IMG/VR virus record: IMGVR_UViG_3300029079_000044 | Direction: 5' to 3' (one strand) | Origin: a virus | Lineage: Duplodnaviria; Heunggongvirae; Uroviricota; Caudoviricetes | Length of the DNA: 17,538 bases | Shown here: piece after piece, positions 2,433-16,802 of the stretch | Position numbering within the stretch: the stretch's first letter is position 1 | How the letters are laid out: every line of letters begins with the position of its first letter | Notes under the pieces: generated by a model | Told to the model about the DNA's origin: nothing | The model's input: only the letters and a program-made list of their open reading frames with translations | Databases searched by the model: none | Translations under genes and position numbers: made by a program

Positions 2433-2485
2433 GGGCGGCAGAGCAGTCACGGAGTAAAACTGATACCGCCAAACGTCACCAGAAA
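2433..2485 (-). ncRNA. dicF: DicF small RNA (ftsZ-targeting), 53 nt
   Basis: Reverse complement reads TTTCTGGTGACGTTTGGCGGTATCAGTTTTACTCCGTGACTGCTCTGCCGCCC followed by TTTTT, matching the DicF sequence as I recall it, including the GGCGG...CCGCC enclosing stem and 3' U-run. Confidence 0.8.
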
Positions 2486-4831: not shown

Positions 4832-4853
4832 AAGCACGGTGTTCGGGGGTTTT

Positions 4854-5816
4854 ATGAGCAGCAAGCTTCATGGTCTTGTCTGGGAAGGGTGCGCCTTCAC
4901 CGGCATGATCTTATCCAGGGTGGCGGTTATGGCCCGTCTTGCAGACTACAGCAATGACGAGGGCGTGTCATGGCCTGCCATTGAAACTATCCGGCGTCAG
5001 ATCGGTGCAAGAAGTGAATCCACAGTGAAATCGGCTATTGCAGAACTGGCGAAAGAGGGCTGGCTGACGAAGGAAGAGCGTAAGGTCGGTGGGCGTAATG
5101 TAAGCAATATCTATCGGCTTAATGTGGAAAAACTCGAAGCAGCTGCGGCGGCGGCGCGTGAGTCATATAAACCGAAAAGAAAAATTAGCCCGGCAAAAAA
5201 TGACCCGTTAACAGTTGACCCGTCAAATATTGACCCCTCAACGGTTGACCCGTCAAATTTTGATGGATCAACTGTTGATAAAAAACTGCCGATTAGGGGG
5301 GCGATGATTGACCCCGATCCGTCAGTATTAAAACCTGATCCGTCAGATAAAAGATCTTCTTGTCCGGACGCTTCGCAACCGGACCCGCAGACGGCTGAAC
5401 AGGATTTTTTAACCCGACACCCTGACGCGGTTGTGTTCAGTGCGAAAAAACGCCAGTGGGGAAGTCAGGAAGATTTGGTGTGCGCACAGTGGATCTGGGG
5501 ACGAATCGTGAGTCTTTACGAGCAGGCGGCCAGCGATGATGGCGAGATCACTAGACCGAAAGAACCCAACTGGACAGCATGGGCCAATGACGTTCGCACA
5601 ATGCGGATGCTGGATGGCAGAACTCACAGACAAATTTGTGAAATGTTTGGGCGTCTCCAGCGGGATTCGTTCTGGGTAAAAAACATCATGAGTCCGGCAA
5701 AACTCCGGGAAAAATGGGATGAACTGGTTATCCGCCTGGGGCGTTCGCCTGCGCAGCGTTGCGTGAATCACATTTCTGAACCGGACACTGAAATTCCGCC
5801 GGGCTTCAGGGGGTAA
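4854..5816 (+). CDS. Replication initiator, lambda O-like (winged-helix N-terminus, pentapeptide-repeat linker, C-terminal domain)
   Basis: Track ORF (4839 start; the ATG at 4854 is preferred because of GGGGG upstream); N-terminal helix-turn-helix-like region; DPxxV/DPSxI repeats encoded by in-gene iterons. Confidence 0.6.
   Translation: MSSKLHGLVWEGCAFTGMILSRVAVMARLADYSNDEGVSWPAIETIRRQIGARSESTVKSAIAELAKEGWLTKEERKVGGRNVSNIYRLNVEKLEAAAAAARESYKPKRKISPAKNDPLTVDPSNIDPSTVDPSNFDGSTVDKKLPIRGAMIDPDPSVLKPDPSDKRSSCPDASQPDPQTAEQDFLTRHPDAVVFSAKKRQWGSQEDLVCAQWIWGRIVSLYEQAASDDGEITRPKEPNWTAWANDVRTMRMLDGRTHRQICEMFGRLQRDSFWVKNIMSPAKLREKWDELVIRLGRSPAQRCVNHISEPDTEIPPGFRG
5200..5274. repeat. Five tandem ~15-bp-phased iterons (core TTGACCCGTCAA, internally palindromic TTGAC/GTCAA): candidate origin of replication inside the initiator gene
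   Basis: atgacccgttaa (5200), ttgacccgtcaa (5215), ttgacccctcaa (5230), ttgacccgtcaa (5245), ttgatggatcaa (5260); a further degenerate copy near 5308. Confidence 0.55.
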
Positions 5817-6435: not shown

Positions 6436-7122
6436 ATGACCCCAATAAAAATATTTATGACTATTGCTGATTTCAAACGGCCTAAATTGGAGCTCCCAAA
6501 CGGGGCAAACAAACTACTACTGCACTCTTGCTGTGCTCCATGTTCCGGTGAAGTGATGGAGGCGCTTCAGGCCTCGGGAATCGACTACACCATCTTTTTC
6601 TACAACCCGAACATTCATCCTCAGAAAGAGTATTTAATTCGTAAGGATGAAAATATTCGCTTTGCTGAACAACACGGCGTGCCGTTTATCGATGCTGATT
6701 ACGACACCGACAACTGGTTTGAACGTGCCAAAGGAATGGAATGGGAGCCTGAGAGGGGGATCCGTTGTACCATGTGTTTTGACATGCGTTTTGAGCGGAC
6801 AGCGTTGTACGCTGCTGAAAATGGTTTCAGTGTGATCAGCAGTTCACTGGGCATTTCACGCTGGAAAAATATGCAGCAGGTTAACGAGTGTGGGCGGCGA
6901 GCTGTTGCGCATTATCCGGGTATGGTGTACTGGGATTATAACTGGCGCAAGCAGGGCGGCTCGTCCCGTATGATTGAAATCAGCAAGCGCGAAAAATTCT
7001 ATCAGCAGGAATATTGTGGCTGTGTGTATTCTCTGCGCGATACCAATCTACACCGCAAATCTCAGGGACGCCCTCTTATCAAAATTGGTCAACTCCACTA
7101 CGATAAAGAAGAGAAGGAGTGA
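6436..7122 (+). CDS. queH: QueH-like protein (DUF208; putative epoxyqueuosine reductase), 228 aa
   Basis: [11 protein letters not shown] motif near the N-terminus plus downstream RCTMCF and CGC Cys motifs, as I recall for DUF208/QueH. Start is uncertain because no clear Shine-Dalgarno precedes 6436 or 6457. Confidence 0.65.
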
Positions 7123-7154
7123 TTTTATGGAGCACCTTTCTTATTGATTTCATA

Positions 7155-7224
7155 TTGGCGAGGTAGCGGGAGTTAAGTAAAATTGCTGCGGGTGCTTGAG
7201 GTTGTCTGTCTCAGGCATCCGCAG
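7155..7224 (+). promoter_or_regulatory. Promoter-like element (TTGGCG, 17 nt, TAAAAT) followed by conserved hairpin motif copy A
   Basis: -35 at 7155-7160 and -10 at 7178-7183; hairpin 7186-7224 (CTGCGGGTGCTTGAGGT / loop / TCTCAGGCATCCGCAG) with G-U wobble pairs only on the plus strand; sits at the left boundary of the AT-rich cassette. Confidence 0.4.
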
Positions 7225-7330
7225 AAAAATCAGCAAAATGCTCGTTTTATGCACAATTGTAGGATGGTAATCTGATGCATAATTATTCGAAATAACATAA
7301 AATACTAGACGTGTAGGCTGTGGGGTAGTT

Positions 7331-7945
7331 ATGAGAGTAAATAAACTACATTTAGGTGCTAGAGTTTCGCTATTTATAGTGTCATACCTTCCCCTATTCT
7401 TTATCATGTGTTTTGTGCAATTGTATACTTATAGAAGCTATTTAAATTGGAAAGGTATAAGTGTTGAATCATTAACTATTTTCTTTAAATACTTTGGCGC
7501 GGTCAGTGTCATTGGTGTATTATCATTATTTGGTATTGTAGGATTAACAATTTTTTTAAAAAATATAAAACGTCGATGCGCCACTAGTGGTAGAACTGTA
7601 AGAGTTATAGATATTGAAAATAAAAACAATGAATCAATAAGCTATCTTTTTACATATATAATTCCGTTTGTATTTCAGGATCTATCCACTTTAACTAATG
7701 TTATACCTATAGCAATATTGTTAACGGTAACGGCTTTAATATATATTAATTCAAGCATGATACTTATAAATCCTACAATAAGTATTAATTATACTTTATA
7801 TCAAGTTACATATTTGGATTTAGAAAGCGACAAAAAACGCACTGGTATGGTTTTGACTAAATCAAAGTATTTGGAGGAAGATGATCTTCTTGATGTTGAG
7901 GACGTGGGCCCAAAACTTTTTTATGCTGAATCCCATAAGGAATGA
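7331..7945 (+). CDS. Integral membrane protein with about 4 predicted TM helices and an acidic C-terminal tail (204 aa); first gene of the AT-rich cassette, KwaA-like architecture
   Basis: Track ORF; hydrophobic segments LFIVSYLPLFFIMCFVQLY, AVSVIGVLSLFGIVGLTIFL, YLFTYIIPFVF, VIPIAILLTVTALIYI; GGGG upstream of the ATG; stop overlaps the next start. Confidence 0.7.
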   Translation: MRVNKLHLGARVSLFIVSYLPLFFIMCFVQLYTYRSYLNWKGISVESLTIFFKYFGAVSVIGVLSLFGIVGLTIFLKNIKRRCATSGRTVRVIDIENKNNESISYLFTYIIPFVFQDLSTLTNVIPIAILLTVTALIYINSSMILINPTISINYTLYQVTYLDLESDKKRTGMVLTKSKYLEEDDLLDVEDVGPKLFYAESHKE

Positions 7946-8970
7946 AAATGTTAAAGCTTGAAGAATTATTAGAGTATGCTGAGCAACTTAAGGATGATGA
8001 TGCGGCGAAAATATCGTTGTATTTCATTACTAGACATCTTAAAGCGGGTATGAGTAGAACCGCAAGAGTTGTTGATAAATTCGATTTTAAAATCATTAAA
8101 GCTCCAATCGCTCCAGATATTGCTAAATTTTTTAAGTATACTTTATCAAACCAGATTATTTCTCATGCTTCGAAAGATGATATTGTGATGAAAAAGTATA
8201 CTGTTATTGATGATGATATTGATAATAAGATTTATGCCTATGCTATGAATAACGCGATATCGTTTTCAAAAGTTATTAATAACGATATAAAGAATGATAA
8301 ACCAGTTGTACTTACCTCTCTTGCTGAGGTTCAGAATGATTTGTGGGCCTATTGTATTAAAGTCCAAAAGGGGGCTGACGTCACTTATTCTTTCCGAAAA
8401 ATCAGCAGGGGGAAAGTCACAACAAATGAACCACAAAATATGACTCAGCGCGTATTCGCTTTGTTTGATAAAACAGATAAAGAGTTAAGATCATTTGATG
8501 GCAGCGCAGTCAATTTTGATGACAAAATCGATTGTGTTTATATAAAAGATCAATTTTATGTATTTCATAAGAAAAGTTTTGAGGCTATTGTAGGCTTGGA
8601 GGTTGAGTTTACAGAAGCTGCACAAAAAACATTAAATACAATTAAAGAACTTGATCTTATTGAAGGTTTAGATGTTATTGAACAAGCTATTCTTCATAAG
8701 CCATCACTGAGAAAAATTCTCACTCATATCGCTGAGAAAGGTAACCATACGGTTCTGGAAAAGAATGATGTTCAAGCTATGAATGATGTGCTAAAAATGT
8801 TTCAGAACGAAGAGTTTAAGACCAATGAGCATGGTAAATTAGTCATAGAAGATGAGAGGCAAGGAAGAAACTTTCTCAAACTGTTAAATGATTATTATAA
8901 ACAAGGCATGACTACAAAAAAATACTATGGTACGGATAGCGGAAATGTGATTAACCCTATTAAGGCGTAA
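7942..8970 (+). CDS. Soluble 342-aa protein of unknown function, translationally coupled to the upstream membrane protein; candidate defence effector/sensor (KwaB-like size)
   Basis: Track ORF; ATGA start/stop overlap at 7942-7945; AT-rich codon usage unlike the flanking genes; no catalytic motif recognisable by eye. Confidence 0.7.
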   Translation: MKMLKLEELLEYAEQLKDDDAAKISLYFITRHLKAGMSRTARVVDKFDFKIIKAPIAPDIAKFFKYTLSNQIISHASKDDIVMKKYTVIDDDIDNKIYAYAMNNAISFSKVINNDIKNDKPVVLTSLAEVQNDLWAYCIKVQKGADVTYSFRKISRGKVTTNEPQNMTQRVFALFDKTDKELRSFDGSAVNFDDKIDCVYIKDQFYVFHKKSFEAIVGLEVEFTEAAQKTLNTIKELDLIEGLDVIEQAILHKPSLRKILTHIAEKGNHTVLEKNDVQAMNDVLKMFQNEEFKTNEHGKLVIEDERQGRNFLKLLNDYYKQGMTTKKYYGTDSGNVINPIKA

Positions 8971-9198
8971 AGCATATACTATATCTGGAACTGAAATACC
9001 AGCCGCCATCAGAAAGAACTGATGGGGCTTACAAATAGTAAGTAAATATAAAATGTTAAGGTATTTTTCATGCAAAAATGAAAATCATTGGCACAAATTA
9101 GAAACTAAGTAAATTGCTAATACTAATAACTTATTATTCTACTTACTATTTGCATGGAGTTGTTGTGAATTGCTGGAAAGGTGGGTAATGTTTTTGTA

Positions 9199-9237
9199 GA
9201 ATCACGGCGGGTGCTTGAGGCTATCTGCCTCGGGCAC
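9199..9237 (+). promoter_or_regulatory. Conserved -10-like hexamer (TAGAAT) plus hairpin motif copy B
   Basis: GCGGGTGCTTGAGGCTATCTGCCTCGGGCA at 9207-9236 is 26/30 identical to copy A at 7188-7217; forms an 11-bp stem GTGCTTGAGGC/GCCTCGGGCAC with loop tatct; sits at the right boundary of the AT-rich cassette. Confidence 0.4.
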
Positions 9238-9399
9238 GAACACCAAAGGCAGATAGAGAAAAGCCCCAGTTAACATTACGCGTCCTGCAAGACGCTTAAC
9301 ATTAATCTGAGGCCAATTTCATGCTAGACACATGTAGGTTAGCCTCTTACGTGCCGAAAGGCACGGAGAAGCAGGCTATTGTTAACACCAAGCTGTAAT

Positions 9400-10900
9400 G
9401 TCCCCTTTGAACCATTCTAAAATGTCCCCAGACAATTCTCTGGGGGATTTTTCATGATCAAAGAGACTGTTACGATGAGTCATAAGGAACTCCACCGACT
9501 TCAGATTATTCAGGAACAAGCTGCGGCACGCATTGGCATTTCTATTCGGCAGGTTAAACGTCTGGTGCAACGGTATAGAAATGAAGGGCCTTCTGGTCTG
9601 GTTTCCCACCGACGTGGAAAGCGTCCTAATAATTCCTTTTCTACTGAATTCAGAGCAACAGTAATTTCACTCCTCAAAGGCCGTTACGCTGATTTTGGAC
9701 CTACGTTTGCGTGCGAAAAATTGCGCGAGATACACGGTTTATCTTTATCCGTTGAAACTCTCAGAAAGTGGATGATAGAAGAGGGGTTATGGCGTGAACG
9801 CCGTCGTAAAATTGCCCGTATATATCAACGCCGCATGCGACGACCATCTTACGGTGAACTGATCCAGATTGATGGCTCACCTCATGACTGGTTTGAAAAT
9901 CGAGGCCCCAGATGTACACTGATCGTTTTCATTGATGATGCCACCAGTGCGTTGATGGCGTTGCGTTTTGTGCCTGCTGAAACAACCCGGGCTTACATGG
10001 AAACCCTCCGGGGTTACCTTAATGATCATGGCGTACCGCTCGCTCTCTACTCTGATAGACACAGTATATTCAGGGTAAATAACCCAGAGCGGGAAGGTGA
10101 GCTGACCCAGTTCACTCGTGCGATAAAGACACTGGGCATCGAGCCAATCCATGCCAACAGCCCGCAGGCAAAAGGGCGGGTAGAGCGCGCCAATCAGACA
10201 CTACAGGACAGGCTGGTCAAAGAAATGCGGCTTCAGAATATCAGTGATATTGAAACAGCAAATGCATGGTTGCCGACCTTTATTGAAGCCTATAACAACC
10301 GGTTCGCTACGTCGCCTCGTACTACTGATAATGCTCATCTTGATGTGCACCATTCTGAAGAGGAACTGGGTTATATCTTCAGCCTACAGGCGAAGCGCGT
10401 TCTGTCTAAAAATCTCACTTTCCAGTACAAAAGCAGTGCGTTTCAGGTACGCAGTGAGGGCCGGGGATATCGACTTAGGCATTCGGTTGTTACTGTATGC
10501 GAGAACTTTGACGGTGAAATTAACGTTCTGTATGACGGGAAAGCGCTGGGCTGGGAAAAGTATGTTGATGGCCCGGAGCCTATACCACTGGATGATGAAA
10601 AGAGTGTCCATGAACGAGTGGATAATGCCCGTATTGATTTACGCTCAAAATACTATGTTAAACCTAAAGCTGACCATCCCTGGCTTACGCGCCGAACGCA
10701 AAGTCATCAGCAAGTTAAGCCCCCGAAGTTACCTAAAAAGAAGCCTGATCCCGATAAAAAAGATTGAAACCAAGATCGATTCGGTTGAGTGCATATCCAT
10801 TCATAGGGTAGATTCTTAAGTCGCGTTTCTGGTGTTCATTTTCGGGTGGTTTGTTACTTGTTTTACCGGGGATATGCCAGAAACGCGCTGAGTCAGTCTG
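9400..10900 (+). mobile_element. Insertion sequence carrying one DDE transposase gene (IS481/ISNCY-like); ends approximate
   Basis: Single 437-aa transposase ORF; terminal inverted repeats could not be resolved by eye, so these bounds are a guess of ORF plus about 50-130 bp each side. Confidence 0.35.
9454..10767 (+). CDS. DDE transposase with N-terminal HTH and rve integrase core (IS481/ISNCY-family-like), 437 aa
   Basis: Track ORF; N-terminal HTH (ARIGISIRQVKRLVQRYRNEG); catalytic-triad candidates in IQIDGS, YSDRHS and KGRVERANQTLQ; lysine/proline-rich basic C-terminus. Confidence 0.8.
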   Translation: MIKETVTMSHKELHRLQIIQEQAAARIGISIRQVKRLVQRYRNEGPSGLVSHRRGKRPNNSFSTEFRATVISLLKGRYADFGPTFACEKLREIHGLSLSVETLRKWMIEEGLWRERRRKIARIYQRRMRRPSYGELIQIDGSPHDWFENRGPRCTLIVFIDDATSALMALRFVPAETTRAYMETLRGYLNDHGVPLALYSDRHSIFRVNNPEREGELTQFTRAIKTLGIEPIHANSPQAKGRVERANQTLQDRLVKEMRLQNISDIETANAWLPTFIEAYNNRFATSPRTTDNAHLDVHHSEEELGYIFSLQAKRVLSKNLTFQYKSSAFQVRSEGRGYRLRHSVVTVCENFDGEINVLYDGKALGWEKYVDGPEPIPLDDEKSVHERVDNARIDLRSKYYVKPKADHPWLTRRTQSHQQVKPPKLPKKKPDPDKKD

Positions 10901-11203
10901 GGCGGTGCGCGTAATGAGGCGTTATGGTAAATAGCCTATGCTAATGTCCGCTAAGAGCAAGAAGCGGAAGTTGGCAGTTTTGTGGACTGTCCCCACAAAA
11001 GTGACTACAGAAATAGTTGCAATTCATAATTGATCATGGGTTGTCAGTTAAACTCGTGGCGATTTAAATAGACTAATTGGGAGTGCGTCCATTACTTATA
11101 TCTTGTAATGTTAACTATCAGAAATGATACAAAGATAATATGTCTTTAAAGAAAAGGCTGATGGCGAAAAGTGGCCCGATGAGGGCCACAATACGGCTGT
11201 CAC

Positions 11204-11536
11204 TTAGACGTAAATATCAATGGTGCCAGCGGTATTTGTATCGTCTTTTTTCTCTTCTTTTTTATCAGGCTGAACTGTCGCGTCTTCATTCTTTTTCTCT
11301 GCCTGCTGCCTTAACAACTGCTCCAGTTGAGCCCAGAGGCTTTCAATTTGCTTCTGTACCAATGCAGCCATTTCTTTTTTCTGCTGTGTCGTCATCCCCT
11401 CTTCCGATGAGATTTTCCCAAGCTTTTCAGTCAGCACCTGAATTTGTCTTGTGATTTTGGCTATTTCTGATGTTCCTTCCGGGGCGGAGTTGTTTGAAAT
11501 AACGGTTGAGGTATTTCCCTGAATTGTGACAGACAT
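11204..11536 (-). CDS. flxA: FlxA-like protein (110 aa)
   Basis: Track ORF MSVTIQGNTS...; AGGAG Shine-Dalgarno; preceded by a near-consensus sigma-28 promoter; position next to relB as in Qin. Confidence 0.7.
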   Translation of the reverse strand: MSVTIQGNTSTVISNNSAPEGTSEIAKITRQIQVLTEKLGKISSEEGMTTQQKKEMAALVQKQIESLWAQLEQLLRQQAEKKNEDATVQPDKKEEKKDDTNTAGTIDIYV

Positions 11537-11559
11537 AGATTTCTCCTTTTAAAAAAGCA

Positions 11560-11586
11560 CTATCGGCATGCACAAAAAAATCTTTA
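11560..11586 (-). promoter_or_regulatory. Sigma-28 (FliA) class-3 promoter for flxA
   Basis: Minus strand reads TAAAGATT, 11 nt, GCCGATAG against the consensus TAAAGTTT-N11-GCCGATAA; the -10 element lies about 24 nt upstream of the flxA ATG. Confidence 0.6.
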
Positions 11587-11738
11587 ATCGTATTTCTTGT
11601 GTCATTAATTGTTTGATGTTCAGATTGTTTTCCTCGCGGGCTGGCGCGCCTCAGAAAGTAAAGCTTGTTGACAGGGGTAAACGTTCGGCAATAATTTTCT
11701 GCCGCATGCGGGTGTTGCATAAAACGTGTTACGTTCCT

Positions 11739-12044
11739 TTATCGACAGTTCAGGTCACCGCTCACCCGCCGACGAGAAAGCAACACTGACATGCTAAAGC
11801 AAAAAATAGATGAATAAGTTGAGTTGTGCATATGTAGCCTGACCGTCACAAAGTATATGGTGTCTGTACCAGTAAGATGATGGCCGGACTCTTTAAAAAC
11901 GAGCTGACCTGCACAATACAGGATGGACTTAGCAATGGCTGCTCCTGGCACAAAGCGGACAGTGATCACCGTTCTTACGACTACTTTCTGACTTCCTTCG
12001 TGACTTGCCCTAAGCATGTTGTAGTGCGATACTTGTAATGACAT
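11739..12044 (-). CDS. YdfV-like hypothetical ORF (101 aa), doubtful
   Basis: Track ORF with size and position like ydfV between flxA and relB; no convincing Shine-Dalgarno; start lies inside the relBE promoter/operator. Confidence 0.3.
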   Translation of the reverse strand: MSLQVSHYNMLRASHEGSQKVVVRTVITVRFVPGAAIAKSILYCAGQLVFKESGHHLTGTDTIYFVTVRLHMHNSTYSSIFCFSMSVLLSRRRVSGDLNCR

Positions 12045-12060
12045 TTGTAATTACAAGAGG
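12004..12060 (+). promoter_or_regulatory. relBE promoter and relO operator
   Basis: TTGCCC, 17 nt, GATACT, then repeated TTGTAAT/ATTACAA hexads (cttgtaatgacatttgtaattacaag) directly upstream of relB. Confidence 0.6.
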
Positions 12061-12068
12061 TGTAAGAC

Positions 12069-12308
12069 ATGGGTAGCATTAACCTGCGTATTGACGATGA
12101 ACTTAAAGCGCGTTCTTACGCCGCGCTTGAAAAAATGGGTGTAACTCCTTCTGAAGCGCTTCGTCTCATGCTCGAGTATATCGCTGACAATGAACGCTTG
12201 CCGTTCAAACAGACACTCCTGAGTGATGAAGATGCTGAACTTGTGGAGATAGTGAAAGAACGGCTTCGTAATCCTAAGCCAGTACGTGTGACGCTGGATG
12301 AACTCTGA
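12069..12308 (+). CDS. relB: RelB antitoxin (79 aa)
   Basis: MGSINLRIDDELKARSYA...PKPVRVTLDEL matches RelB as I recall it; AGAGG Shine-Dalgarno; TGATG overlap with relE. Confidence 0.9.
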   Translation: MGSINLRIDDELKARSYAALEKMGVTPSEALRLMLEYIADNERLPFKQTLLSDEDAELVEIVKERLRNPKPVRVTLDEL

Positions 12309-12595
12309 TGGCGTATTTTCTGGATTTTGACGAGCGGGCACTAAAGGAATGGCGAAAGCTGGGCTCGACGGTACGTGAACAGTTGAAAAAGAAGCTGGTT
12401 GAAGTACTTGAGTCACCCCGGATTGAAGCAAACAAGCTCCGTGGTATGCCTGATTGTTACAAGATTAAGCTCCGGTCTTCAGGCTATCGCCTTGTATACC
12501 AGGTTATAGACGAGAAAGTTGTCGTTTTCGTGATTTCTGTTGGGAAAAGAGAACGCTCGGAAGTATATAGCGAGGCGGTCAAACGCATTCTCTGA
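12308..12595 (+). CDS. relE: RelE mRNA interferase toxin (95 aa)
   Basis: MAYFLDFDERALKEWRKLGSTVR...VYSEAVKRIL matches RelE as I recall it. Confidence 0.9.
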   Translation: MAYFLDFDERALKEWRKLGSTVREQLKKKLVEVLESPRIEANKLRGMPDCYKIKLRSSGYRLVYQVIDEKVVVFVISVGKRERSEVYSEAVKRIL

Positions 12596-12666
12596 ACCAA
12601 AGCATGACATCTCTGTTTCGCACCGAAGGTGACACTTCTGCTTTGCGTTGACAGGAGAAGCAGGCT

Positions 12667-12822
12667 ATGAAGCAGCAAAAGGCGATGTTAATCGCCCTGA
12701 TCGTCATCTGTTTAACCGTCATAGTGACGGCACTGGTAACGAGGAAAGACCTCTGCGAGGTACGAATCCGAACCGGCCAGACGGAGGTCGCTGTCTTCAC
12801 AGCTTACGAACCTGAGGAGTAA
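12667..12822 (+). CDS. hokD: Hok-family membrane toxin HokD/RelF (51 aa)
   Basis: Hand-translated MKQQKAMLIALIVICLTVIVTALVTRKDLCEVRIRTGQTEVAVFTAYEPEE; below the track length cutoff; follows relE as in the relBEF operon. Confidence 0.8.
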   Translation: MKQQKAMLIALIVICLTVIVTALVTRKDLCEVRIRTGQTEVAVFTAYEPEE

Positions 12823-12890
12823 GAGACCCGGCGGGGGAGAAATCCCTCGCCACCTCTGATGTGGCAGGCATCCTCAACGCACCCGCACTT

Positions 12891-13636: not shown

Positions 13637-14686
13637 GTGCGGGTATTACTTAGACCTGTTCTGGTGCCTGAGCTTGGGCTGGTGGTCCTTAAGCCGGGCC
13701 GTGAATCCATACAGATATTTCATAATCCTCGAGTGCTGGTGGAACCGGAACCAAAAAGCATGCGTAATCTGCCATCCGGAGTCGTTCCTGCCGTTCGCCA
13801 GCCGCTGGCGGAAGACAAAACATTGCTGCCGTTTTTTAGTAACGAACGGGTGATTCGTGCTGCTGGCGGCGTTGGCGCATTGTCCGACTGGCTATTACGT
13901 CATGTTACATCCTGCCAGTGGCCTAATGGCGATTACCATCACACTGAAACAGTCATTCACCGTTATGGTACCGGCGCAATGGTGTTGTGCTGGCACTGCG
14001 ACAACCAACTGCGTGACCAGACATCGGAATCACTGGAGCTGCTTGCTCAACAAAATCTGACAGCATGGGTGATTGACGTCATCCGTCACGCAATAAGCGG
14101 TACGCAGGAGCGGGAATTATCTTTGGCTGAATTATCCTGGTGGGCGGTCTGCAATCAGGTGGTGGATGCACTACCTGAGGCTGTATCGCGTCGTTCGCTG
14201 GGATTACCAGCGGAAAAAATCTGCTCGGTGTACCGCGAAAGCGACATCGTACCGGGAGAGCAGACCGCCACCAGCATATTGAAACAACGCACAAAAAATC
14301 TTGCACCGTTGCCTTACGCCCACCAGCAACAAAAATCACCACAGGAAAAGACGGTGGTAAGCATCACCGTTGATCCAGAGTCTCCGGAATCTTTCATGAA
14401 GCTGCCTAAACGTCGCCGCTGGGTTAAGGAGAAATACACACGTTGGGTTAAGACACAGCCGTGTGCTTGCTGCGGTATGCCAGCCGACGATCCGCATCAT
14501 CTGATTGGTCACGGGCAGGGCGGAATGGGAACAAAAGCACATGATCTCTTTGTGTTGCCTTTGTGCAGAAAGCATCACAACGAGCTGCATACGGATACAG
14601 TGGCATTTGAAGATAAGTATGGCTCCCAACTGGAGCTGATATTTCGTTTTATCGATCGCGCGCTGGCAATTGGCGTACTGGCGTAA
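13637..14686 (+). CDS. ydfU: YdfU-like DUF968 protein (349 aa from GTG)
   Basis: Track ORF 13598..14686 trimmed to the GTG at 13637, which is preceded by GGAGG; length then matches ydfU as I recall it; C-terminal Cys/His cluster (CACCGMPADDPHHLIGHG...CRKHHNELH). Confidence 0.6.
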   Translation: MRVLLRPVLVPELGLVVLKPGRESIQIFHNPRVLVEPEPKSMRNLPSGVVPAVRQPLAEDKTLLPFFSNERVIRAAGGVGALSDWLLRHVTSCQWPNGDYHHTETVIHRYGTGAMVLCWHCDNQLRDQTSESLELLAQQNLTAWVIDVIRHAISGTQERELSLAELSWWAVCNQVVDALPEAVSRRSLGLPAEKICSVYRESDIVPGEQTATSILKQRTKNLAPLPYAHQQQKSPQEKTVVSITVDPESPESFMKLPKRRRWVKEKYTRWVKTQPCACCGMPADDPHHLIGHGQGGMGTKAHDLFVLPLCRKHHNELHTDTVAFEDKYGSQLELIFRFIDRALAIGVLA

Positions 14687-14699
14687 GTGGAGAACGAGC

Positions 14700-15452
14700 A
14701 TGAACCTTGAAGCCTTACCAAAATATTACTCCCCAAAATCTCCAAAATTGAGCGATGACGCTCCAGCGACAGGCACCGGTTGTTTAACAATTACGGATGT
14801 AATGGCAGCGCAGGGGATGGTGCAGTCGAAAGCACCACTTGGGTTGGCCTTATTTCTGGCAAAAGTTGGTGTTCAGGACCCTCAGTTTGCGATTGAAGGC
14901 CTGCTAAATTACGCGATGGCACTGGATAACCCGACATTGAACAAATTGAGTGAAGAAATCCGGTTACAGATTATTCCTTACCTCGTGAGTTTTGCCTTTG
15001 CTGATTACTCCAGGTCTGCGGCAAGTAAGGCTCGCTGTGAGCATTGTTCAGGTACGGGATTTTATAATGTATTGCGCGAAGTGGTGAAACACTACAGACG
15101 CGGGGAATCTGTAATCAAGGAAGAATGGGTGAAGGAACTATGTCAGCATTGCCATGGTAAGGGCGAAGCCAGCACAGCGTGCAGAGGGTGTAAGGGTAAA
15201 GGGATTGTTCTGGATGAAAAAAGAACCCGGTTTCATGGCGTACCGGTATATAAGATTTGTGGGCGTTGTAATGGAAACCGGTTTAGTCGTTTACCGACCA
15301 CGCTGGCACGACGTCATGTCCAGAAGCTGGTACCAGACCTGACCGATTATCAGTGGTATAAGGGGTATGCGGACGTCATTGGTAAACTGGTAACAAAGTG
15401 CTGGCAGGAAGAAGCATACGCGGAAGCGCAATTGAGGAAGGTGACGAGATAA
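14700..15452 (+). CDS. quuQ: Late-gene antiterminator Q (QuuQ-like, 250 aa) with CxxC zinc-finger motifs
   Basis: ATG at 14700 preceded by GGAG at 7-nt spacing; CEHCSGTG, CQHCHGKG, CRGCKGKG and CGRCNG motifs; followed by a late promoter and terminator. Confidence 0.75.
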   Translation: MNLEALPKYYSPKSPKLSDDAPATGTGCLTITDVMAAQGMVQSKAPLGLALFLAKVGVQDPQFAIEGLLNYAMALDNPTLNKLSEEIRLQIIPYLVSFAFADYSRSAASKARCEHCSGTGFYNVLREVVKHYRRGESVIKEEWVKELCQHCHGKGEASTACRGCKGKGIVLDEKRTRFHGVPVYKICGRCNGNRFSRLPTTLARRHVQKLVPDLTDYQWYKGYADVIGKLVTKCWQEEAYAEAQLRKVTR

Positions 15453-16086: not shown

Positions 16087-16386
16087 AAAAATTCCTTAAT
16101 ACTGATAACTTGGCGCACTATACACACGTTCCTGAAGAAAGCTATAGTTTTTTGATGGGGTTGAAGATGGCTGGATGTCTAAAATAAACATTGCTTCATA
16201 TGTTCAACTATGCGTTAATGATTGCGTCGGTTTGAAGAACAGACGATATACGAAGTAGTTTACTAAAGCAGTTCTCATTTCAGGTGTTATTCACTTATTC
16301 CTTCTTTGAGTCTCTCCAATTAAGTACGAAGTCGTTTCTGTTATGCAAACCATTTATGCCGAAAGGCTCAAGTTAAGGAATGTAGA

Positions 16387-16602
16387 ATGTCAAATAAAAT
16401 GACTGGTTTAGTAAAATGGTTTAACGCTGATAAAGGTTTCGGCTTTATTTCTCCTGTTGATGGTAGTAAAGATGTGTTTGTGCATTTTTCTGCGATTCAG
16501 AATGATAATTATCGAACCTTATTTGAAGGTCAAAAGGTTACCTTCTCTGTAGAGAGTGGTGCTAAAGGTCCTGCGGCAGCAAATGTTATAATTACCGATT
16601 AA
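16387..16602 (+). CDS. cspB: Cold-shock protein CspB-like (71 aa)
   Basis: [51 protein letters not shown]...; AAGGA Shine-Dalgarno. Confidence 0.8.
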
Positions 16603-16802
16603 AATCCAGGACTCGACTGTATACGATAACGAAGATGGCTGATGCCTGAGTAGAGATGCAGATAGAGTAATGGATATAGAATCCCATTTTGTGGTGAAGT
16701 ACAGGTTTGCTGTATGAATAGTTTAATAGCAGAAGCTAACTGCTGGCATAGTAAAACAAAGTGCGTAAGTGGGTGACTCCCACAAAAAGCACCACAATCT
16801 CA

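What the first reader, a model, noticed from the sequence alone, without database searches (positions are those of the whole stretch)
7155..9258. Two copies of a promoter-proximal hairpin motif sit exactly at the two edges of the AT-rich cassette
GCGGGTGCTTGAGGTTGTCTGTCTCAGGCA (7188-7217) and GCGGGTGCTTGAGGCTATCTGCCTCGGGCA (9207-9236) are 26/30 identical and in the same orientation. Each folds into a 10-11-bp stem (copy A extended by an outer CTGCGG/CCGCAG stem), and the differences between copies keep pairing through G-U wobbles that are valid only for the plus-strand RNA. Each is preceded by a good -10 hexamer (TAAAAT at 7178; TAGAAT at 9199) and a shared AATTGCTG block. Composition switches to AT-rich right after copy A and back to normal just before copy B. 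This could be a 5' leader hairpin shared by paralogous moron promoters (an RNA stability, processing or antitermination element), or an attL/attR-like footprint of the cassette insertion.
Basis: seen in the sequence. Interest (0 to 1): 0.6.

Follow-up and report, generated by a model that had tools for sequence, protein, structure and literature searches.

The report
Duplicated hok toxin leader flanking Kiwa
The two repeats are the promoter and first 30 bases of a well-known prophage toxin mRNA (hok), present twice because a Kiwa anti-phage cassette sits inside that toxin locus; this is ordinary prophage mosaicism with a small twist.

Summary
Units 7177-7217 and 9196-9236 are 41-nt direct repeats (80% identical; 26/30 in the core) that bracket an AT-rich block. 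Neither unit is a new element.

- **Copy B** is the true 5' end of a hokD/hokW-type type I toxin mRNA leader. It matches Rfam RF01794 at 9209-9380 with 105.6 bits.
- **Copy A** is a stub of a second hok allele: the promoter plus bases +1 to +29. Its homology to hok ends at 7217/7218.
- **The AT-rich block** is a Kiwa defence operon (kwaA, kwaB).

Related E. coli prophages have the empty site, QueH followed by a single hok locus. The Kiwa module occurs in 156 of 5,426 complete E. coli genomes and always carries both copies. It is found on two prophage backbones, and the crossover points fall inside the hok sequences.

In about 135 other phage contigs the motif is always followed by the normal hok leader. 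It is therefore not a general moron leader and not an att site.

I infer, but have not shown, that copy A supplies Kiwa with a constitutive promoter and a 5'-terminal hairpin. I also infer that the two copies serve as homology arms for moving the cassette between prophages.

The parts
6457..7122 (+). queH (epoxyqueuosine reductase), the left neighbour of the hok locus in this prophage type
   Evidence: Pfam QueH E 1e-65. RefSeq annotation of the identical region in strain DP051.
7155..7183 (+). Copy A promoter: -35 TTGGCG (7155-7160), 17-nt spacer, -10 TAAAAT (7178-7183). The start at G7190 is predicted by homology.
   Evidence: Promoter scan gives 9/12, the best site between queH and kwaA. 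Collinear with the hok promoter of the empty-site strain N39.
7177..7217 (+). Copy A of the repeat: -10 region plus the first 28 nt of a hok mRNA (tac element and its local complement). Homology to hok ends at 7217/7218.
   Evidence: (D3). A full-length hok allele that differs at one base in +1..+29 exists in IMG/VR.
7190..7220 (+). Copy A hairpin. It sits at the very 5' end of the predicted transcript: 12 bp including three G-U pairs. The last two C residues come from the inserted DNA.
   Evidence: Fold -18.3 kcal/mol, z -4.8.
7218..7330 (+). Cassette-borne AT-rich leader upstream of kwaA. It holds a weaker promoter-like site (TGCATA-16-TAAAAT, 7276-7303).
   Evidence: Identical in all carriers examined. 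Not conserved in Kiwa loci of other genera. Relaxed promoter scan.
7331..7945 (+). kwaA (Kiwa membrane component)
   Evidence: PADLOC KwaA E 1.3e-101.
7942..8970 (+). kwaB (Kiwa DUF4868 component)
   Evidence: PADLOC KwaB E 5.3e-159. Pfam KwaB E 3.7e-16.
8971..9195 (+). AT-rich 3' flank of the cassette. It has no intrinsic terminator. It supplies the -35-like TGGAAA (9174-9179) for the copy B promoter.
9196..9236 (+). Copy B of the repeat: -10 TAGAAT (9197-9202) and the first 28 nt of the hok leader. Predicted start at G9209.
   Evidence: Homology of all other hok loci to the window starts at 9196.
9209..9380 (+). Complete hok mRNA 5' leader (tac stem, ucb, mok region) up to the hok start codon, where it is cut off
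   Evidence: Rfam RF01794, 105.6 bits, E 1.7e-23, model positions 1-157 of 157. Aligns with intact hokD and hokW loci.
9259..9329 (-). Sok-like antisense RNA gene. The position is transferred from the sokW annotation of phage 933W and was not tested here.
   Evidence: 933W annotates sokW at +51..+121 of the homologous leader.
9381..12653 (.). A block of about 3.3 kb (ISNCY transposase-like ORF, ydfW, flxA, ydfV, relB, relE) inserted in the hok start codon. It is flanked by a 15-nt duplication, GGAGAAGCAGGCTAT, at 9365-9379 and 12654-12668.
12667..12822 (+). hokD ORF (51 aa), separated from its own leader
   Evidence: Pfam HOK_GEF in sister contigs.
12872..12884 (+). fbi element CCTCAACGCACCC. 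It is complementary to the GGGTGCTTGAGG found at the 5' end of both copies.
   Evidence: Read from the sequence. The role of tac/fbi is described in PMC9841398.

Best explanation
The repeated unit is the core promoter (-10) and the first roughly 29 nt of a hok-family type I toxin mRNA.

Shown:
- Copy B starts a complete hok leader.
- Copy A is only a stub. It carries the hok promoter plus the tac element and the adjacent complement that together form the known 'metastable' 5' hairpin. It is then joined at 7217/7218 to foreign AT-rich DNA carrying the Kiwa defence operon kwaAB.
- Related prophages without Kiwa have one hok locus directly after queH.
- The module [stub - kwaAB - second hok promoter and leader] occurs as one nearly invariant unit in 156 E. 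coli genomes.
- It sits on at least two prophage backbones, and its ends merge into the resident hok sequences at different points.

Inferred:
- The structure arose from two illegitimate joints between different phage genomes, and the two joints overlapped by 41 nt on the hok sequence. The left parent contributed hok allele A up to +29. The right parent contributed hok allele B from -13. This explains why the copies differ by ordinary hok polymorphisms.
- The arrangement persisted because it leaves a complete hok/sok locus downstream of Kiwa.
- It also places Kiwa behind a constitutive hok promoter that does not depend on the phage repressor. The resulting transcript would start with a fully paired 5'-terminal hairpin, a form that generally protects E. 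coli mRNAs from 5'-end-dependent decay.
- The stub lacks the Sok target, so Kiwa would escape Sok control.
- The two hok copies also act as homology arms that let the cassette move between hok-bearing lambdoid prophages.
For: Identity:
- RF01794 hit at 9209-9380, well above the gathering score.
- The model's final AUG aligns with the hokD start codon in intact loci.
- The homologous places are annotated hokD, or hokW/mokW/sokW in phage 933W.
- The tac/fbi pairing and the metastable tac hairpin are described in PMC9841398.

Empty site:
- Strain N39 has queH, one promoter plus leader, then hokD.

Stub:
- Homology of copy A to hok stops after GGCAT.
- Copy A gives no Rfam hit on its own.

Cargo:
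- KwaA E 1e-101 and KwaB E 5e-159.

One module:
- 156 of 5,426 genomes carry it, all at 99% identity or more, with one place per genome.
- Copy A is present in all of them.
- All 5 metagenome contigs and all 9 IMG/VR contigs with the cassette have copy A.

Mobility by homology:
- Strain CEA224S carries the module behind a DUF551 gene, with a 933W-type hok promoter and TAGAAT. It becomes identical to the window from the 5' leader onward.
- On the right side, the carriers are identical up to about 9285 and then carry different hok alleles.
- 40 carriers have an intact hokD directly after copy B.

Allelic origin of the differences:
- Each of the four core differences is a polymorphism seen among full-length hok leaders.
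- One full-length allele matches copy A at 29 of 30 positions and shares TAAAAT.

Promoter and hairpin:
- Best sigma-70 match upstream of kwaA.
- Stable 5'-terminal hairpin.
Against: - No transcript data were available, so promoter use and any stabilising effect are not shown.
- A second, weaker promoter-like site lies 28 nt upstream of kwaA inside the cassette and could be the working promoter.
- Some carriers, such as WP3-S18-ESBL-09, have G to A at +5 of copy A. This breaks a G-C pair, so the hairpin is not strictly conserved.
- No donor context for the cassette flanks was found, so the order of events is a reconstruction.
- The copy B discriminator CACGGC was not seen in any other hok allele sampled.
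Confidence: 0.8

Rival explanations
1. Copy A is an inert relic. Kiwa is transcribed from its own promoter inside the cassette (for example TGCATA-16-TAAAAT, 7276-7303) or by read-through from the phage early operon. The stub hairpin has no role.
For: - A promoter-like site scoring 8/12 lies 28 nt before the kwaA ATG.
- Kiwa operons of other genera work without any hok sequence.
- A natural G-to-A variant breaks a pair of the copy A hairpin in some carriers.
- The polymorphisms of copy A are simply inherited from hok alleles, so they are not evidence of selection on the stub.
Against: - The copy A promoter is the best consensus match upstream of kwaA and is an intact copy of a promoter that serves hok elsewhere.
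- There is no terminator between it and kwaA.
- Every carrier found retains it.
Confidence: 0.35
2. The repeats are attL/attR-like sites or a target-site duplication left by a site-specific recombinase or transposase that inserted the cassette.
For: The repeats are direct, lie exactly at the two composition boundaries, and are imperfect palindromes.
Against: - The unit is 41 nt long and only 80% identical, while the cassette itself varies by less than 1% among 156 genomes.
- The differences are standing hok polymorphisms.
- No integrase or transposase belongs to the module. The ISNCY-like ORF downstream belongs to a separate insertion that also occurs without Kiwa. It is absent from 40 carriers.
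- The cassette was found in no other target.
- Exchange points lie at different positions inside the hok sequence.
Confidence: 0.03
3. The motif is a general 5' leader module (antitermination, processing or stability element) shared by promoters of different moron genes in lambdoid prophages.
For: Two copies stand upstream of different genes in this window, each behind a -10 hexamer.
Against: Across the IMG/VR contigs and the fetched loci, 37 distinct variants were found. Every instance continues into the canonical hok leader partner GGCAGAYAGAG...GCCCC, except the Kiwa-linked stub. The element is covered by the hok/sok Rfam model.
Confidence: 0.03
4. The 41 nt were duplicated in place from a single hok allele when the cassette entered. 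The copies later diverged by mutation or by gene conversion from other hok loci in the genome.
For: - E. coli genomes hold up to 9 hok-like places that could donate patches.
- The left part of copy A changes with the backbone.
Against: - Eight differences in 41 nt contrast with under 1% variation of the 2-kb cassette.
- The cassette-proximal part of copy A and all of copy B are constant in every carrier examined.
Confidence: 0.1

Closest known systems
hok/sok type I toxin-antitoxin loci of lambdoid prophages (hokD/relF of Qin, hokW-mokW-sokW of phage 933W); Rfam RF01794
   Same: Copy B and its downstream 172 nt are a full member:
- same promoter -10 and same first bases;
- tac element, long tac stem and mok region;
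- 92-98% DNA identity to annotated loci.

Both copies form the tac 'metastable' hairpin and are complementary to the fbi element at 12872-12884.
   Different: In this window the leader is cut from the hokD ORF at the start codon by a 3.3-kb insertion. Copy A holds only the promoter and +1..+29. It lacks the tac-stem partner, the Sok target, mok and hok, and it is fused to a Kiwa operon.
Morons of lambdoid phages: extra genes carrying their own promoter, inserted between conserved phage genes. This concept is from my own knowledge of the phage literature and was not looked up here.
   Same: The block is AT-rich and foreign. It lies between queH and the hok to Q region, is expressed independently of the phage early operon, and carries a host-benefit function (anti-phage defence).
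   Different: The best promoter in front of the cargo is not cassette-borne. It is a copy of the neighbouring toxin gene's promoter and leader. No terminator closes the cassette.
5'-terminal stem-loop mRNA stabilisers in E. coli, for example the ompA 5' UTR. This is from my own knowledge and was not tested here.
   Same: The predicted kwaAB transcript would start with a hairpin that leaves no unpaired 5' nucleotides.
   Different: No half-life data exist. The hairpin is inherited from a toxin mRNA, where its known job is to delay translation and Sok binding during transcription.
Kiwa defence system (KwaA/KwaB)
   Same: Two-gene operon: a membrane KwaA and a DUF4868 KwaB, with strong profile matches. 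Kiwa is often carried on prophages (PMC11785009).
   Different: Nothing differs in the proteins. The point of note is the location inside a hok locus.

Membership tests
hok mRNA 5' leader (Rfam RF01794 'sok/CssrC') | Covariance-model score above the gathering threshold (59 bits) | tested here: met
   Copy B region 9209-9380 scores 105.6 bits, E 1.7e-23, with the full model matched.
hok mRNA 5' leader (Rfam RF01794 'sok/CssrC') | The same test applied to copy A | tested here: not met
   No RF01794 match in 7100-7400 even at E up to 10. Only the first roughly 29 nt are hok-like. Copy A is a fragment, not a member.
hok/sok type I toxin-antitoxin locus | tac element at the mRNA 5' end that pairs with a complement immediately downstream (metastable hairpin) | tested here: met
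   Both copies fold: -20.9 and -18.3 kcal/mol, z -5.9 and -4.8. The hairpin is paired in 99.3% of cells across 29 variants, with only Watson-Crick to G-U changes. The feature is described in PMC9841398.
hok/sok type I toxin-antitoxin locus | Long tac stem (5' end paired with GGCAGAYAGAG...GCCCC about 40 nt downstream) | tested here: met
   Met for copy B: -31.2 kcal/mol, 95.9% of cells paired, with an A-U to G-C compensatory pair in 6 variants. Not met for copy A, where the partner is absent.
hok/sok type I toxin-antitoxin locus | fbi element at the mRNA 3' end complementary to tac | tested here: met
   CCTCAACGCACCC at 12872-12884 is complementary to GGGTGC-TTGAGG with one bulge. In this window it lies on a separate transcription unit.
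hok/sok type I toxin-antitoxin locus | mok/hok reading frames directly after the leader | tested here: not met
   In this window the leader ends at GGCTAT|T (9380) and the hokD ORF lies 3.3 kb away. The frames are contiguous in 40 of the 156 Kiwa carriers and in empty-site strains.
hok/sok type I toxin-antitoxin locus | Sok antisense RNA gene with its own promoter | not tested
   The position (9259-9329, minus strand) is transferred from the 933W sokW annotation. The promoter scan listed no minus-strand site there at 9/12.
hok/sok type I toxin-antitoxin locus | Transcription start at the first G of GGGTGC | not testable with these tools
   Supported only by the -10 hexamer ending 6 nt upstream of that G and by the Rfam model starting there.
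Site-specific att sites or transposon target duplication | Cognate recombinase or transposase, identical core at both ends, same element at other targets | tested here: not met
   No recombinase is in the module. The copies are 80% identical. The cassette is found only in hok loci.
Intrinsic terminator | GC-rich hairpin followed by a U run | tested here: not met
   The terminator scan reports nothing at either copy. Copy A is followed by AAAAATCAGC.
Kiwa defence system | Adjacent kwaA (membrane protein) and kwaB (DUF4868) genes | tested here: met
   PADLOC KwaA E 1.3e-101 and KwaB E 5.3e-159. Pfam KwaB.

The most novel reading that the evidence does not exclude
The hok stub is not debris but a selected expression and mobility module. 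A toxin gene's promoter and 5'-terminal hairpin have been co-opted to give a defence operon constitutive expression in lysogens, independent of both Sok and the phage repressor. The pair of hok leaders forms a portable recombination cassette that turns hok loci of lambdoid prophages into exchange points for defence genes. A more remote variant: read-through kwaAB-hok transcripts close on themselves through tac(A)-fbi pairing, which would tie Kiwa mRNA fate to hok-type 3' processing.
Probability: 0.25. Interest if true: 0.45.

Novelty: new member of a known kind. Interest (0 to 1): 0.25.

Why it matters
This explains a puzzling pair of structured repeats as parts of a textbook toxin-antitoxin locus. 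It gives a clean example, with an empty site for comparison, of how a defence cassette becomes embedded in a prophage and then spreads between backbones by homologous exchange. If the stub promoter drives Kiwa, it would show that regulatory parts of a type I toxin can be reused to express immunity genes in lysogens. It would also point to hok loci as places to look for further cargo. It does not open a new class of element.

Tried and rejected
- **tRNA or tmRNA:** none in the window.
- **Intrinsic terminator at either copy:** none.
- **Known RNA family at copy A:** only chance-level hits, SprD at E 1.5 and MIR821 at E 8.9.
- **put-like or other antitermination leader:** considered from memory. 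I dropped it once copy B proved to be the hok leader and the motif never preceded other cargo.
- **Copy B keeps a diverged hok -35 region:** the MAFFT alignment suggested this, but a shuffle test found no significant similarity upstream of 9196, so I withdrew the idea.
- **Search for a donor of the cassette flanks:**
  - phages and plasmids held no Kiwa DNA apart from a 68% Vibrio match;
  - one genome per species gave only coding-region homologues in Yersinia, Symbiopectobacterium and 'Martelella', with no hok motif;
  - a metagenome scan returned 5 contigs, all with copy A.
- **Primer tables of the Kiwa paper:** I wanted to see whether a 'native promoter' clone includes copy A, but no supplements are held.
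- **K-12 MG1655 as a reference for the leader half:** the leader is absent there, deleted together with the replication genes.
Full report
**1. The observation**

The repeat finder extends them to 41 nt, at 7177-7217 and 9196-9236. They are 80% identical, lie in the same orientation, and form the longest two-copy direct repeat in the window (D3).

Both units fold into stable hairpins as plus-strand RNA:
- Copy B forms an 11-bp stem (-20.9 kcal/mol, z -5.9).
- Copy A forms a 12-bp stem (-18.3 kcal/mol, z -4.8), or 16 bp with the outer CTGCGG/CCGCAG stem (-27.9 kcal/mol, z -7.0).
- The minus strand of copy A is weaker (-18.6 kcal/mol).

Each unit follows a promoter-like site that matches 9 of 12 consensus positions: TTGGCG-17-TAAAAT at 7155-7183 and TGGAAA-17-TAGAAT at 9174-9202. 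GC content drops to 0.26-0.35 between the copies.

Two details need correcting. TAGAAT starts at 9197, not 9199. The 'shared AATTGCTG block' is out of register between the copies and is not homologous.

**2. What copy B is**

An Rfam scan matches the whole of family RF01794 ('sok/CssrC') at 9209-9380 on the plus strand, with 105.6 bits against a gathering score of 59. The match begins exactly at the GGGTGC of copy B.

The final AUG of the model aligns with the hokD start codon in intact loci. In this orientation the model therefore describes the hok mRNA leader. The homologous places in E. coli genomes are annotated hokD. In phage 933W they are annotated hokW, mokW and sokW.

The literature on hok describes three relevant features (PMC9841398):
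- a 5' 'tac' element;
- its pairing with a 3' 'fbi' element;
- a transient metastable structure in which tac pairs with a complement immediately downstream.

Across 29 distinct natural variants it is paired in 99.3% of cells. Its three variable pairs switch only between Watson-Crick and G-U. The alternative long tac stem is also kept, with 95.9% of cells paired and one A-U to G-C compensatory pair in six variants. The fbi complement of both copies lies at 12872-12884, downstream of the hokD ORF.

**3. What copy A is**

Strain N39 provides an empty site: queH, then one promoter and leader, then hokD. Aligned to it, the window is collinear from queH through the -35, the -10 and the first roughly 29 nt of the leader. 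It then departs at GGCAT|CCGCAG, at 7217/7218.

On the right side, homology to every other hok locus resumes at 9196, between the -35 and the -10. The flank upstream of 9196 has no significant similarity to hok promoters.

Copy A is therefore a stub of a hok locus. It gives no Rfam match on its own.

**4. What lies between the copies**

The two AT-rich genes are kwaA (7331-7945, PADLOC E 1.3e-101) and kwaB (7942-8970, E 5.3e-159). Together they form a Kiwa anti-phage system.

Kiwa homologues in Yersinia, Symbiopectobacterium and a genome labelled Martelella share only the coding region, 7331-8963. They carry no hok motif.

**5. Distribution**

- The 1,978-bp insert occurs in 156 of 5,426 complete E. 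coli genomes. It appears once per genome, always on the chromosome, and always at 99% identity or more.
- Copy A with its junction is present in all of these genomes.
- It is also present in all 5 metagenome contigs and all 9 IMG/VR contigs that carry the cassette.
- 40 carriers have an intact hokD immediately after copy B. The rest have the split form seen in this window.
- One complete genome (CEA224S), two IMG/VR contigs and one metagenome contig carry the module on a different backbone. There a DUF551 gene lies upstream, followed by a 933W-type hok promoter with TAGAAT. These sequences become identical to the window only from the 5' leader onward.
- On the right side, all carriers are identical up to about 9285 and then carry different hok alleles.

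The ends of the module thus blend into the resident hok sequences at variable points. That is the signature of homologous exchange, not of site-specific recombination.

**6. Is the motif a general leader?**

Two scans of IMG/VR returned about 135 contigs carrying the motif, in 37 distinct variants. Every instance continues into the canonical hok leader except the Kiwa-linked stub. The motif does not recur upstream of other cargo.

**7. Why the copies differ**

Each of the four core differences is a polymorphism seen among full-length hok leaders. One full-length allele matches copy A at 29 of 30 positions and shares the TAAAAT hexamer.

Eight differences in 41 nt, next to a cassette that varies by less than 1%, argue against a fresh duplication. 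I infer two illegitimate joints between different phage genomes that overlapped by 41 nt on the hok sequence.

The separate 3.3-kb insertion at the hok start codon shows the same pattern. It is flanked by a 15-nt duplication, GGAGAAGCAGGCTAT, at 9365-9379 and 12654-12668.

**8. How it probably works (inference)**

Copy A is the best sigma-70 match between queH and kwaA, and no terminator lies between it and kwaA. By homology, transcription would start at G7190. The RNA would then begin with a fully paired hairpin, which is the form known to protect E. coli mRNAs. That last point is from my own knowledge and was not tested here. The stub lacks the Sok target, so Sok would not act on this transcript.

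Three points count against this reading:
- A weaker promoter-like site lies at 7276-7303.
- Some carriers have a G-to-A change at +5 that breaks a pair of the hairpin.
- There are no transcript data.

The outer CTGCGG/CCGCAG stem lies mostly upstream of the predicted start. It could form only in read-through RNA.

**9. Comparison and verdict**

Copy B is a member of a known family. Copy A is a fragment of that family, reused at a cassette boundary. The att-site reading and the general-moron-leader reading are not supported.

A literature search for Kiwa together with hok found no paper describing this arrangement.

The finding is sound as an observation but ordinary in kind. It is a known toxin leader, present twice because a defence cassette lies within the locus.

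Noticed in passing
window 9365-9380 and 12654-12669: The hok locus is split exactly in its start codon (GGCTAT|T) by a block of about 3.3 kb: an ISNCY transposase-like ORF, ydfW, flxA, ydfV and relBE. The block is flanked by a 15-nt duplication of the hok ribosome-binding region. The hokD ORF (12667-12822) now sits behind relBE, as in the K-12 relBEF operon. The orphaned leader half survives upstream here, but it is absent from K-12 MG1655. The same leader-ISNCY junction occurs without Kiwa in strain EC590.
   Followed up: partly
window 2433-2484 (-): DicF small RNA, 76.7 bits. With dicA/dicC-like genes nearby, it marks the window as a Qin-like lambdoid prophage.
   Followed up: no
window 16226-16644 (+): cspA-type thermoregulator leader plus a cold-shock gene, 162 bits, downstream of the Q antiterminator gene (14670-15452).
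   Followed up: no
window 5180-5276: Four 15-nt spaced repeats of TTGACCCGTC-like units plus an inverted copy, inside the O-like replication gene at 4839-5816 (D1 and I1). They are probably the prophage origin iterons.
   Followed up: no
window 7207-7223 and 12860-12876: The copy A junction TGTCTCAGGCATCCGCA is 82% identical to TGTGGCAGGCATCCTCA in the hokD 3' UTR, just before fbi (D5). Part of copy A's side is a complement of tac, which may explain some of the likeness. A role of this similarity in forming the joint cannot be excluded.
   Followed up: no
L133 (E. coli WP3-S18-ESBL-09) 2601-2646, equivalent to window 7194: A G-to-A change at +5 of copy A (GGGTACTTGAGG) breaks a G-C pair of the hairpin. 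About 20 of the 156 carriers differ at one base in 7177-7222, but which base was checked in only two of them.
   Followed up: partly
window 9203-9208: The discriminator of copy B reads CACGGC. Every other hok allele sampled has TGCTGC, GACTGC, GGCTGC or TACTGC. The -35 of this promoter is supplied by the inserted AT-rich DNA. Copy B is therefore a hybrid promoter whose strength may differ from normal hok promoters.
   Followed up: no
L129 (contig JAGZPX010000007.1): A contig filed under a Veillonella parvula metagenome bin carries the E. coli queH-Kiwa-hokD prophage segment at 99% identity. This is most likely a binning error.
   Followed up: no
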